A stretch of 64,000 nucleotides of DNA from Escherichia coli (GTDB taxonomy: Bacteria; Pseudomonadota; Gammaproteobacteria; Enterobacterales; Enterobacteriaceae): assembly GCF_002854065.1 (NCBI RefSeq), contig NZ_CP024147.1. One strand, written 5' to 3'. A model generated the notes under the pieces. The model did no database searches. It was given only the letters and a program-made list of their open reading frames with translations, and had not been told where the DNA came from. Shown here piece by piece: positions 16,310 through 18,163 of this stretch; the first letter of the stretch is position 1, and each line of letters begins with the position of its first letter. The position numbers and the translations under genes were made by a program.

Positions 16310-18163
16310 TTACCTTTCCAGTCGCCTTGCTCCGCGCTCAGAGAGACGTTCGCGTACTGCTGACCGTTGCTCGTTATTTAGCCTGGCAGTATGGTTACTG
16401 TCGTTTAGACGTTGTGGGTGGCTCTCCTTAACTTTCTCCCGAAAAACCTGACGTTGTTCAGGTGATGCCGATTGAACACGCTGGCGGGCGTTATCACGTT
16501 GCTGTTGGTTCAGTGGGCTCTGCTGTACTTTTTCCTGAAACACCTGGCGCTGCTCAGGCGAGGCTGACTGAATACGCTCACGCGCTGCCTCTCTTCGCTG
16601 CTGGATCTGTGGGTTAGTCTGCATTTTCTCGCGGACTGCCTGGCGCTGCTCAGGCGAGGCGGGCTGAATGCGCTCACGCGCTGCCTCTCTTCGCTGCTGG
16701 TTCTGCGGGTTAGTCTGCATTTTCTCGTGAACTGCCTGGCGCTGCTCAGGAGAAGCTGACTGATAACGCTGACGAGCGGCGTCCTTTTGTTGCTGGGTCA
16801 GTGGTTGGCGACGGCTGAAGTCGCGGAAGTCGTCATAGCTCCCATAGTGTTCAGCTTCATTAAACCGCTGTGCCGCTGCCTGACGTTGGGTATCTCGTGT
16901 AATGACGGGGGCGGCGTGTGTTCGTTGCTGAAACTGACTTGCTGCCGCCTGACGCTGGCTGTCGCGTGTTGGAGCAGGTAGCTGCGTGGCACTCATTCCG
17001 CCGTTGACATCAGTTTGATGAAACCGCTTTGCCATATCCTGATCATGATAGGGCACACCATTACGGTAGTTTGGATTGTGCCGCCATGCCATATTCTTAT
17101 CAGTAAGATGCTCACCGGTGATACGGTTGAAATTGTTGACGTCGATATTGATGTTGTCGCCGTTATGTTGCCAGCCATTACCGTCACGATGACCGCCATC
17201 GTGGTGATGATAATTATCATCGTCATGATGATGATGGTCATGATCGTCGTCATCCCAGTCGATGCTGCTGAATAGTGCGTACGTGGTAGCAACGCCCATG
17301 CTATAGCCGAATCCGCGCACAAAGCTGTCAACAAACGGTTCTCCGGCTGGTGGTGGCAGATAAACCGGCGGATACGCAGTATTGGCCCAGTTCCCGTAAA
17401 CCACGGTTGGGTTGTAGTTGGGAATATAGACTACATCAGGATTGGCGGGCTCAATGGAAATGACTGTTGTTGCAGGCTCTGTAATGACAGGGTTGGCAGT
17501 TGAAACGGTATTGGATGGTATGACGGGAGCCGTGACTGTCTGTGTTACCGGTACAGTTTTCTTTGTTGTGGTAATAACTTTCTGTTCGGTTGATGACTTC
17601 AGCGAACCGGTTTGTTGCGCCAGTTGCCGCAATCGCTGTACCGAGTCCATCACGTCCTGCGGCTGCGCCAGAAAAGCATCGCCCAGGTTTTGCACCCATT
17701 GCGGGTTTTCGCCCATCAACGCCATCAATTGTGGAAAGGCCACCAGTGATTTGACGCTAGCGTCCCACGGCTGGTCAGATACCGCCTGAATAGCAGCATC
17801 GCCTTGTTTAAGTGGATTATCGTGTGACCATTGCACTGCTTGAGCAACGTTTGCCGGATAGGTTGATGCCATTAACACTTGTGAAAGCAGAGAGTCGGGG
17901 TATAGCGCGACAGGTGCAACCCATTGATCTATTTGTGCAGTGCTGAATGCGGATTTAACGACGGCGGGTGTTACGGGAGGCGCGGAAACCGTTGCAGGAA
18001 GCGTAACCGCGGCAGCGTCAGACACAGCCAGTTGTGTCGATAGCGGTTCCACAGGCGCTTCCACTGTGCGGCTTTTTATATATAGCCCGGCAGAGGCGGC
18101 ACAAAGCCCGGCACTGCAAATTAGCGCCAGCACATGGGGTTTAAACGGCAAAGTCATTTTCAT
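16310..18163 (-). CDS. yacH: secreted repeat protein YacH (DUF3300 family), function unknown
   Basis: 617-aa ORF with N-terminal signal peptide, central His/Asp-rich tract and C-terminal 32-aa tandem repeats. Confidence 0.85.
   Translation of the reverse strand: MKMTLPFKPHVLALICSAGLCAASAGLYIKSRTVEAPVEPLSTQLAVSDAAAVTLPATVSAPPVTPAVVKSAFSTAQIDQWVAPVALYPDSLLSQVLMASTYPANVAQAVQWSHDNPLKQGDAAIQAVSDQPWDASVKSLVAFPQLMALMGENPQWVQNLGDAFLAQPQDVMDSVQRLRQLAQQTGSLKSSTEQKVITTTKKTVPVTQTVTAPVIPSNTVSTANPVITEPATTVISIEPANPDVVYIPNYNPTVVYGNWANTAYPPVYLPPPAGEPFVDSFVRGFGYSMGVATTYALFSSIDWDDDDHDHHHHDDDNYHHHDGGHRDGNGWQHNGDNINIDVNNFNRITGEHLTDKNMAWRHNPNYRNGVPYHDQDMAKRFHQTDVNGGMSATQLPAPTRDSQRQAAASQFQQRTHAAPVITRDTQRQAAAQRFNEAEHYGSYDDFRDFSRRQPLTQQQKDAARQRYQSASPEQRQAVHEKMQTNPQNQQRREAARERIQPASPEQRQAVREKMQTNPQIQQRREAARERIQSASPEQRQVFQEKVQQSPLNQQQRDNARQRVQSASPEQRQVFREKVKESHPQRLNDSNHTARLNNEQRSAVRERLSERGARRLER
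16450..16830 (-). repeat. yacH: 96-bp tandem coding repeats in yacH (about 3.5 copies)
   Basis: The string GGCGCTGCTC recurs at 16546, 16642 and 16738 (period 96 bp) within near-identical blocks; protein repeat ...ASPEQRQAVREKMQTNPQ.QQRREAARERIQ. Confidence 0.85.

What the first reader, a model, noticed from the sequence alone, without database searches (positions are those of the whole stretch)
16310..18163. yacH encodes a secreted protein with 96-bp tandem repeats and a His/Asp-rich tract
The C-terminal third consists of about 3.5 near-identical 32-aa repeats, with DNA period exactly 96 bp (GGCGCTGCTC at 16546, 16642, 16738). The central region is almost pure His/Asp (DDDDHDHHHHDDDNYHHHDGGHRDGNGWQHNGDN). 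The N-terminus is a signal peptide. Repeat number is a likely source of length variation between strains, and the His/Asp tract suggests metal binding. The gene sits next to the copper and iron loci cueO and fhuACDB but has no assigned function.
Basis: seen in the sequence. Interest (0 to 1): 0.35.

Follow-up and report, generated by a model that had tools for sequence, protein, structure and literature searches.

The report
Length-variable repeats in E. coli yacH
The gene yacH encodes an exported protein of unknown function with two slippage-prone coding repeats, a 96-base minisatellite and a histidine/aspartate tract; both really do vary in length between E. coli strains, but nothing yet ties the gene to metal handling.

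Summary
ORF 16310-18163 (-) is yacH, 617 aa, Pfam DUF3300. It has an N-terminal Sec-type signal, a His/Asp tract (aa 304-337) and 96-bp/32-aa tandem units. Only two units are near-identical (91%); the third is 59% and the fourth 31% identical in protein.

Across 5,426 complete E. coli genomes the array has 2, 3, 4 or 5 units. In a systematic sample of 60, about 53% match the window, about 43% are -96 bp and about 2% are -192 bp. At least four genomes are +96 bp. Alleles with an identical first 900 nt carry 2, 3 or 5 units, so changes are recurrent. The His/Asp tract also varies (+6, +24, -39 bp) by slippage between short direct repeats. All indels seen in intact alleles are multiples of three.

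Added context:
- The repeat array is an Escherichia-specific expansion; Citrobacter has one unit.
- The His/Asp tract is an expanded beta-hairpin turn, four residues long in most homologues.
- E. coli has lost the DUF2950 partner gene that follows DUF3300 genes elsewhere, including at the syntenic Citrobacter locus.

Metal binding is plausible but untested. The "next to cueO/fhu" argument fails: they lie 5.8 kb and 37.7 kb away. This is an ordinary intragenic VNTR in an uncharacterised envelope protein.

The parts
16310..18163 (-). yacH coding sequence (617 aa plus stop), DUF3300 family
18089..18163 (-). N-terminal Sec-type signal (aa 1-25: n-region MKMTLPFKPH, h-region VLALICSAGL, c-region CAASA; candidate cleavage ASA|G). 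Cleaved peptide versus membrane anchor is undetermined.
   Evidence: Read from the sequence; only TM-like segment; AF2 helix 9-30; signal peptides across the family
17564..17947 (-). Conserved helical core of DUF3300 (aa 73-200); pLDDT 94-98; dN/dS 0.04
17450..17563 (-). T/V/P-rich linker (aa 201-238), fast-evolving (dN 0.12, dN/dS 0.31), two phylogroup-type haplotypes
17255..17449 (-). Conserved strand/Pro-rich segment (aa 239-303: IEPANPDVVYIPNYNPTVVYGNW...YPPVYLPPP...ALFSSIDW); dN/dS 0.06
17153..17254 (-). His/Asp tract (aa 304-337), a GAY/CAY codon-repeat region with a 21-bp sub-period. It is a disordered loop between strands 299-301 and 338-341. Length-polymorphic: +6, +24, -39 bp in genomes and -21 bp in the protein database.
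17045..17152 (-). Family-conserved motif after the loop (aa 338-373: NINIDVNNF...WRHNPNYRNGVPY), lying beyond the end of the Pfam model
16757..16801 (-). Degenerate half-unit preceding the array (aa 455-469, LTQQQKDAARQRYQS)
16661..16756 (-). Repeat unit A1 (aa 470-501, ASPEQRQAVHEKMQTNPQNQQRREAARERIQP)
16565..16660 (-). Repeat unit A2 (aa 502-533), 91% identical to A1 with a 30-bp exact run. The A units are the ones gained or lost in most variants.
16469..16564 (-). Repeat unit B (aa 534-565, ASPEQRQVFQEKVQQSPLNQQQRDNARQRVQS); missing in B2-type AAC alleles
16313..16468 (-). Terminal degenerate unit C plus conserved C-terminal end (aa 566-617; ...LNNEQRSAVRERLSERGARRLER, shared with Citrobacter)
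16269..16298 (.). Bidirectional terminator-like hairpin between the convergent lpdA and yacH genes: A-run, GCGGC / loop TAACCAC / GCCGC, T-run
   Evidence: Read from the sequence. Not called by the consensus scan, probably because the A/T runs extend the stem.
18227..18232 (-). Candidate -10 hexamer TATACT of the yacH promoter. It is conserved across genera and has no good -35, which would fit an activator-dependent promoter (inference).

Best explanation
yacH encodes a Sec-exported envelope protein of the large, uncharacterised DUF3300 family. A conserved, constrained core carries two low-complexity additions that are hypermutable at the DNA level. The core comprises a helical domain, a strand/Pro-rich segment and the INVN...WxHNPxxRxGVPY motif.

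(1) The basic Q/R-rich C-terminal tail contains an Escherichia-specific array of 32-aa units. Each unit has net charge about +3 and is predicted to form two helices. The array is encoded by a 96-bp minisatellite. Adjacent A units are 90-98% identical with exact runs of 21-51 bp, so replication slippage or unequal recombination adds or removes whole units. The arrays seen are BC, ABC, AAC, AABC and AAABC.

(2) A beta-hairpin turn that is four residues long in most homologues has been expanded in Enterobacteriaceae into a 24-38-residue His/Asp loop encoded by GAY/CAY codon repeats. This tract changes length by slippage between short direct repeats.

Shown: the anatomy, the polymorphism, its recurrence on identical backbones, the in-frame restriction, strong purifying selection on the core, and loss of the DUF2950 partner gene in E. 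coli.

Inferred: the slippage/recombination mechanism. It follows from the repeat structure and from established knowledge of RecA-independent tandem-repeat rearrangement.

Inferred with low confidence: that length changes are tolerated quantitative tuning rather than an on/off switch. The tuning would act on the charge or reach of a polyanion-binding cationic tail, and on the capacity of a low-affinity divalent-metal-binding loop resembling the His-rich loop of ZnuA.
For: Identity and family.

Repeat anatomy.

Population variation:
- Systematic sample of 60 genomes for the repeat region: 32 like the window, 26 at -96 bp (24 by length, plus two partially aligned rows, one of which was confirmed at 1758 bp), 1 at -192 bp, 1 divergent.
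- At least 4 of 5,426 genomes are +96 bp.
- Array types.
- His/Asp region sample of 60: 51 same length, 5 at +6, 2 at -39, 1 at +24, 1 disrupted. Junctions are short direct repeats.

Recurrence:
- Identical first 900 nt carry BC, ABC and AAABC arrays.
- AABC versus ABC alleles differ at 0-1 sites.
- +96 arose on two different backbones.
- The -96 length arose in at least two ways, ABC and AAC.

Constraint:
- dN/dS is 0.04-0.06 in the core, 0.3-0.5 in linkers and 0.15 overall.
- dN is 0.025, against 0.0000 for lpdA and 0.0008 for acnB.
- Every length difference in the two genome samples and in ten distinct protein-database variants is a multiple of 3.
- The extreme C-terminus is conserved with Citrobacter.

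Lineage specificity: Citrobacter YacH has the His/Asp tract but only one A[ST]P[EQ]QRQ unit. The loop has a median of 4 residues in 91 homologues and 4 or more His in only 6. Other lineages have unrelated tandem repeats in basic tails.

Structure: the core has pLDDT 94-98, the His/Asp loop is below 50, and the repeats are helical at pLDDT 50-88.

Partner loss: DUF2950 follows DUF3300 in 6 of 7 homologue contexts (6 of 8 loci) and at the syntenic Citrobacter locus. There is no remnant in the window. PMC4653623 states the co-localisation is universal.

Envelope-stress link: yacH is reported as CpxR-regulated, a deletion survives protamine better, and expression is Rob-dependent (PMC9600279, PMC7537768).
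Against: - No experiment shows export, cleavage, metal binding or any phenotype that depends on copy number.
- Allele frequencies come from samples of 60 rows, not a full census.
- AF2 confidence in the repeat region is only moderate, and the tail may simply be disordered.
- The slippage or recombination rate was not measured.
- Pseudogenes exist: 100416, AST217, L3_E36_ETEC, and several S. Typhimurium strains carry an 8-bp deletion in the His/Asp tract. The gene is therefore dispensable in some backgrounds.
- Pairwise dN/dS cannot exclude site-specific positive selection.
Confidence: 0.62

Rival explanations
1. YacH is a dedicated metal-homeostasis protein: the His/Asp tract is its functional centre, and the gene belongs functionally with the nearby copper (cueO) and iron (fhuACDB) loci.
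For: - The tract is 61% H+D and includes an HHHH run.
- A His/Asp-rich loop is kept at the same position in enterobacterial orthologues and recurs sporadically in distant homologues.
- Many homologues have 2-3 His in the ancestral four-residue turn.
- A palindrome containing the centre of the Fur-box consensus lies upstream at 18281-18293.
Against: - cueO is 5.8 kb away with five unrelated genes in between, and fhuA is 37.7 kb away. The immediate neighbours are lpdA and acnB.
- 68 of 91 family members have 0-1 His in this loop, so metal binding cannot be the core family function.
- The tract tolerates -13 to +8 residues.
- No metal-related regulation or phenotype appears in the searchable literature.
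- The Fur-like palindrome is degenerate outside E. coli.
Confidence: 0.12
2. The length variation is adaptive. yacH behaves as a contingency-like locus whose repeat number is under diversifying selection, for example from cationic antimicrobial peptides, phages or host factors acting on an exposed protein.
For: - Recurrent, rapid copy-number change on identical backbones.
- Two array lengths are both common, at about 53% and 43%.
- YacH evolves much faster than its neighbours.
- A yacH deletion is reported to alter protamine survival, and cationic peptides repress the gene (PMC9600279).
- yacH was flagged in a conjugation GWAS (PMC8954029).
Against: - The unit length is a multiple of 3, so there is no on/off switching.
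- Pairwise dN/dS is 0.14 in the repeat region and nowhere convincingly above 1.
- No phenotype has been linked to copy number.
- Surface exposure is not shown.
- Tandem repeats in basic tails occur across the family without sequence conservation, as expected for neutral low-complexity evolution.
Confidence: 0.1
3. yacH is a decaying orphan. After the DUF2950 partner gene was lost in the Escherichia lineage, the gene is under relaxed constraint, and the repeats, indels and high dN are symptoms of erosion.
For: - DUF2950 is lost in E. coli but present at the syntenic Citrobacter locus.
- dN is more than 30 times that of the flanking genes.
- Pseudogenes occur in several E. coli strains and in S. 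Typhimurium lineages.
- Deletion gives no growth defect and even improves recombinant protein yield (PMC7376861).
Against: - The core has dN/dS 0.04-0.06.
- The gene is found in 5,425 of 5,426 genomes, and 5,370 have a match covering at least 80% of it.
- All length variants in the unbiased genome samples are in frame.
- The extreme C-terminus is conserved with Citrobacter.
- The gene is regulated by Cpx and Rob.
Confidence: 0.13

Closest known systems
Pfam DUF3300 (PF11737), usually encoded in a DUF3300-DUF2950 gene pair
   Same: Strong HMM match (264.9 bits). Same architecture as the family consensus: signal peptide, helical domain, VVYVPxYNPxVVYG strand segment, INVN...WxHNPxxRxGVPY motif and basic low-complexity tail.
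   Different: E. coli lacks the DUF2950 partner. The four-residue hairpin turn is expanded to a 34-residue His/Asp loop. The tail carries an Escherichia-specific 32-aa repeat array instead of the common R/G-rich tail.
Intragenic minisatellites / coding VNTRs used in MLVA typing of E. coli and Shigella (for example ms11, also with a 96-bp unit)
   Same: Head-to-tail units whose length is a multiple of three, with copy-number polymorphism between strains and recurrent gain and loss.
   Different: This is not one of the published loci I could check. The ms11 primers are absent from the window. The copy range is narrow (2-5) and the units are partly diverged (A, B and C types).
His/Asp-rich flexible loops of periplasmic metal-handling proteins, such as the ZnuA His-rich loop and the ZraP C-terminus (comparison from established knowledge, not tested here)
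   Same: An acidic, His-rich, disordered segment in an exported protein, of variable length between orthologues.
   Different: No metal-binding fold around it, no known Zur/Fur/Zra regulation and no metal data. The loop is absent from most of the family.
LTXXQ-motif periplasmic chaperones (Spy/CpxP/ZraP) and DUF3106 'SPEER'-type repeats
   Same: Repeated helical units beginning (S/T)PEQ(R/Q). yacH is reported as Cpx-regulated, as are cpxP and spy.
   Different: No Pfam LTXXQ match even at E <= 10. DUF3106 scores only 16.1 bits against a cutoff of 24.3. The resemblance is motif-level only.

Membership tests
DUF3300 (PF11737) | Match to the Pfam HMM above the gathering score | tested here: met
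   264.9 bits against a cutoff of 25, E 7e-79, aa 75-333 covering model positions 2-227 of 227
DUF3300 (PF11737) | N-terminal export signal | tested here: inconclusive
   An n-h-c layout with ASA|G is present and is the only hydrophobic segment. Nearly all representatives have signal peptides. Cleavage versus anchor was not determined, and position 25 is A or T among alleles.
DUF3300-DUF2950 gene pair | A DUF2950 (PF11453) gene immediately downstream | tested here: not met
   yacH ends 70 bp from the convergent lpdA. tblastn and blastn find no DUF2950 remnant in the window. The pair is present at the syntenic Citrobacter locus and in 6 of 7 other homologue contexts.
Coding VNTR / minisatellite | Tandem head-to-tail units with a period that is a multiple of 3 | tested here: met
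   Period 96, 88% matches, no indels; units in register with codons
Coding VNTR / minisatellite | Copy number differs between strains of the species | tested here: met
   2, 3, 4 and 5 units. The differences are recurrent on identical backbones.
Phase-variable contingency locus | Repeat changes shift the reading frame or promoter spacing to switch expression on and off reversibly | tested here: not met
   All repeat-unit and tract length changes in intact E. coli alleles are multiples of 3. The 8-bp deletion in S. Typhimurium is a fixed lineage pseudogene, not a reversible switch.
Periplasmic His-rich metal-binding loop (ZnuA-like) | Binds divalent metal; gene is metal-regulated | not testable with these tools
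   Only composition, conservation in orthologues and predicted disorder are available. No literature support was found.
LTXXQ family (Spy/CpxP/ZraP, PF07813) | Match to the Pfam model | tested here: not met
   No hit at E <= 10 for the tail alone
MLVA locus ms11 (96-bp unit) | Published primer pair flanks the repeat | tested here: not met
   Neither primer is found in the window with up to 3 mismatches
Any solved protein fold | Significant structural match to a PDB chain | tested here: not met

The most novel reading that the evidence does not exclude
DUF3300/DUF2950 is an uncharacterised two-protein periplasmic system found in thousands of bacterial lineages, with a fold unlike any solved structure. 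In Escherichia the orphaned DUF3300 protein YacH has been re-purposed. Its acidic His/Asp loop and cationic repeat tail would buffer metals or cationic peptides at the envelope, and the VNTR would set strain-specific susceptibility to host cationic antimicrobial peptides.
Probability: 0.08. Interest if true: 0.6.

Novelty: new member of a known kind. Interest (0 to 1): 0.33.

Why it matters
yacH is one of E. coli's genes of unknown function, and DUF3300 is a very large family: 9,584 clusters at 50% identity with E <= 1e-3. It has no solved structural relative and a conserved partner gene.

This work gives three things:
- A natural allelic series for the tail (2-5 units) and for the loop (-13 to +8 residues) that could be used directly in functional tests.
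- The observation that E. coli is atypical because it lacks DUF2950, which matters for anyone using K-12 as the model for this family.
- A previously undescribed polymorphic 96-bp locus, as far as the searchable literature shows. Assemblers, typing schemes and association studies should treat it as hypervariable.

It does not reveal a new kind of system, and it does not support a metal-homeostasis role from gene position.

Tried and rejected
- **Internal transmembrane segment** (which would put the His/Asp tract and tail in the cytoplasm). Rejected: the best internal Kyte-Doolittle 19-residue window is 0.78-1.29, against 2.04 for the N-terminus.
- **Tail related to Spy/CpxP/ZraP LTXXQ proteins.** No Pfam hit at E <= 10; only a sub-threshold DUF3106 match.
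- **Repeat equals MLVA locus ms11** (96-bp unit). The primers are absent from the window.
- **Tail or 3' flank as a remnant of DUF2950.** blastp, tblastn and blastn find no similarity.
- **NCBIfam.** No model matches.
- **Rfam, both strands of 16100-18600.** Nothing reaches a gathering score.
- **Promoter/terminator consensus scan.** No more hits than in shuffled sequence.
- **Metal-regulator sites.** A palindrome at 18281-18293 contains TGATAATCA but matches only about 12 of 19 Fur-box positions by eye and is not conserved beyond E. coli. A marbox-like GCAC element and a CpxR-like GTAAA-N6-GTTAA have the wrong spacing or are incomplete.
- **UniProt accession search in papers.** No hits.
- **ORFs on the + strand inside yacH** (64-115 aa). 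No supporting evidence; treated as chance.
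Full report
**1. What is there**

The ORF at 16310-18163 on the minus strand encodes 617 aa.
- It matches Pfam DUF3300 over aa 75-333 (E 7e-79, 264.9 bits). It has no NCBIfam model.
- It is annotated yacH, "DUF3300 domain-containing protein", in RefSeq E. coli genomes.
- It lies between lpdA (convergent; the stops are 70 bp apart and share an A-run/hairpin/T-run) and acnB (divergent; 354-bp spacer).

- GGCGCTGCTC occurs only at 16546, 16642 and 16738.
- Tandem Repeats Finder gives a 96-bp period, 2.4 copies, 88% matches and no indels.
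- The His/Asp string is exact at aa 304-337, window 17153-17254.

Two points are overstated.
- Only units 1 and 2 are near-identical (91%). Unit 3 is 59% identical in protein and unit 4 is 31%.
- The array covers about a fifth of the protein, not a third.

I label the units A, A, B and C.

**2. Variation between strains**

yacH is found in 5,425 of 5,426 complete E. coli genomes.

*Repeat region.* A systematic "spread" sample of 60 genomes gave the following:

| Repeat-region length | Genomes |
|---|---|
| Same as window | 32 |
| -96 bp | 26 (24 by length; 2 partially aligned rows, one fetched and confirmed at 1758 bp) |
| -192 bp | 1 |
| Highly divergent allele | 1 |

A synthetic query carrying an extra unit recovered at least four genomes with +96 bp. 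Two of these were confirmed by sequence as AAABC. The arrays seen are BC, ABC, AAC, AABC and AAABC.

*Recurrence.*
- Alleles identical over the first 900 nt carry BC (JNE120393), ABC (L3_E36_ETEC) and AAABC (EC100).
- AABC and ABC alleles differ at 0-1 sites.
- +96 arose on two different backbones.
- The -96 length arose in at least two ways: loss of an A unit, and, in B2-type alleles, absence of the B unit.

*Substrate for rearrangement.* Adjacent A units are 90-98% identical with exact runs of 21-51 bp. That is ample for slippage or unequal exchange; this step is inferred from established knowledge of tandem-repeat instability.

*His/Asp tract.* In a sample of 60 genomes:

| Tract-region length | Genomes |
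|---|---|
| Same as window | 51 |
| +6 bp | 5 |
| -39 bp | 2 |
| +24 bp | 1 (Nissle 1917) |
| Disrupted | 1 |

The junctions are duplications or deletions between short direct repeats. Examples are a 24-bp duplication, GATCATGACCATCATCATCATGAC, and a CATGAC duplication.

*Other variants.* The protein database adds further in-frame tandem duplications of 45, 17 and 4 aa and a 7-aa deletion.

*Reading frame.* Every length difference, in both genome samples and in these variants, is a multiple of three. This argues that reading through to the conserved C-terminus is selected.

*Pseudogenes.* They do occur:
- an internal stop in strain 100416, the closest relative of the window, and in AST217;
- a local inversion in L3_E36_ETEC;
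- in S. Typhimurium, an 8-bp deletion inside the His/Asp tract shared by UK-1, 14028s, D23580 and SL1344 (PMC3391293, PMC10048834).

**3. Evolutionary rate**

Among 16 intact E. coli alleles:

| Gene or region | dN | dS | dN/dS |
|---|---|---|---|
| yacH, whole | 0.025 | 0.17 | 0.15 |
| yacH conserved core | – | – | 0.04-0.06 |
| yacH linkers | – | – | 0.3-0.5 |
| lpdA | 0.0000 | 0.043 | – |
| acnB (first 1,700 nt) | 0.0008 | 0.082 | – |

The LpdA protein is identical in all 21 strains fetched. The folded part of YacH is under strong purifying selection while the low-complexity parts evolve fast. I see no evidence of positive selection at this resolution.

**4. Family context**

*Size and export.* An exhaustive HMMER search found 9,584 clusters (50% identity) with E <= 1e-3. 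Nearly all full-length representatives have canonical signal peptides.

*Consensus architecture* (91 sequences): signal peptide; helical domain; linker; IxIEPAxPxVVYVPxYNPTVVYGxW; a Gly-rich stretch ending in a conserved Trp; INVNRxN...WxHNPxHRxGVPYRD; then a basic, low-complexity, often R/G-rich tail.

*The loop.*
- Between the conserved Trp (W303) and the INVN motif, the median length is four residues, often containing His (HRHH, HHGD).
- Only 6 of 91 sequences have 4 or more His there, and these are mainly enterobacterial.
- In the AlphaFold2 model the flanking segments are strands (299-301 and 338-341) and the loop has pLDDT below 50.
- The His/Asp tract is therefore an expanded hairpin turn.

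*The tail.*
- Citrobacter YacH (60% identical over aa 3-480) has a His/Asp tract but only one A[ST]P[EQ]QRQ unit. It shares the C-terminal end ...EQRxAxRExLSER.
- The 32-aa array is therefore an Escherichia-lineage expansion.
- Other lineages carry unrelated tandem repeats in their tails. Repeat-prone basic tails are a general property of the family.

**5. Partner gene**
- A DUF2950 gene follows the DUF3300 gene in 6 of 7 homologue contexts examined.
- It also does so at the syntenic Citrobacter locus, arranged acnB / yacH / DUF2950 / lpdA.
- PMC4653623 independently reports universal co-localisation.
- The window holds no trace of DUF2950.
- A DUF2950 protein search listed Citrobacter, Klebsiella, Enterobacter and Buttiauxella among its best 120 hits, but no Escherichia.

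E. coli YacH is therefore an orphan.

**6. Function**

No experiment defines it. Reported data:
- CpxR-dependent regulation; repression by protamine and cecropin A; better protamine survival of a yacH deletion (PMC9600279).
- About 16-fold lower expression in a rob mutant under butanol stress (PMC7537768).
- Improved recombinant protein yield in a deletion (PMC7376861).

My best reading is an exported envelope protein whose cationic tail and acidic His-rich loop are accessory modules. The tail carries about +3 net charge per unit. Both modules are tolerant of, and perhaps tuned by, length change. Metal binding by the loop is chemically likely but physiologically unsupported.

The positional argument fails: cueO starts at 23985, 5.8 kb away with five genes in between, and fhuA starts at 55818, 37.7 kb away.

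**7. Verdict**

The metal interpretation remains a hypothesis. This is an ordinary kind of feature, an intragenic VNTR plus a codon-repeat tract, in an uncharacterised but widespread protein family. Interest is modest.

Noticed in passing
L018 3993-4233 (also L010, L011, L012): B2-type strains carry about 171 extra bp between the yacH and lpdA stop codons. The insert reads as REP/BIME-like palindromic units.
   Followed up: partly
L013 2920-4779 (strain AST85): The yacH allele is only 73% identical in DNA to the window, while lpdA is 98.4% and acnB 95.8% identical. It has 11-aa and 25-aa insertions and a different unit array. The strain may belong to a cryptic Escherichia lineage or carry a replaced allele.
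   Followed up: partly
L017 3238-4995 (L3_E36_ETEC): This yacH pseudogene is caused by a local inversion that begins inside the His/Asp tract. It could be real or an assembly artefact.
   Followed up: partly
window 18281-18293: A perfect palindrome, GGTGAT-A-ATCACC, lies 118-130 bp upstream of the yacH start. It contains TGATAATCA, the centre of the Fur-box consensus. It is conserved in E. coli, degenerate in AST85 and Citrobacter, and absent in a more distant relative.
   Followed up: partly
window 18301-18316: A CpxR-like pair of half-sites, GTAAA-N6-GTTAA, with spacing one base longer than the consensus. It is present only in E. coli sensu stricto alleles. yacH is reported as CpxR-regulated (PMC9600279).
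   Followed up: no
window ~18330-18517: The acnB-proximal half of the yacH-acnB spacer is almost invariant across genera over about 170 bp. This is much more conserved than the yacH-proximal half and suggests a constrained acnB leader or promoter.
   Followed up: no
window 14815-16239 (lpdA): The LpdA protein (WP_000102485.1) is identical in all 21 strains fetched, including the divergent AST85, in sharp contrast to the adjacent YacH.
   Followed up: yes
P0001 (662 aa), P0098, P0092, P0100: Further in-frame tandem changes in YacH outside the 96-bp units: a 45-aa duplication just upstream of the array (seen on 19 contigs), a 17-aa duplication inside unit B, a 4-aa IQQR duplication, and a 7-aa deletion in the His tract.
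   Followed up: partly
L002 3501-5354 (strain 100416): In the closest relative of the window's allele (99.8% identical), yacH is annotated as a pseudogene with an internal stop, whereas the window's copy is intact.
   Followed up: partly
summary: Five of the 8,801 yacH-matching places in E. coli complete genomes are on records labelled as plasmids. They were not examined.
   Followed up: no
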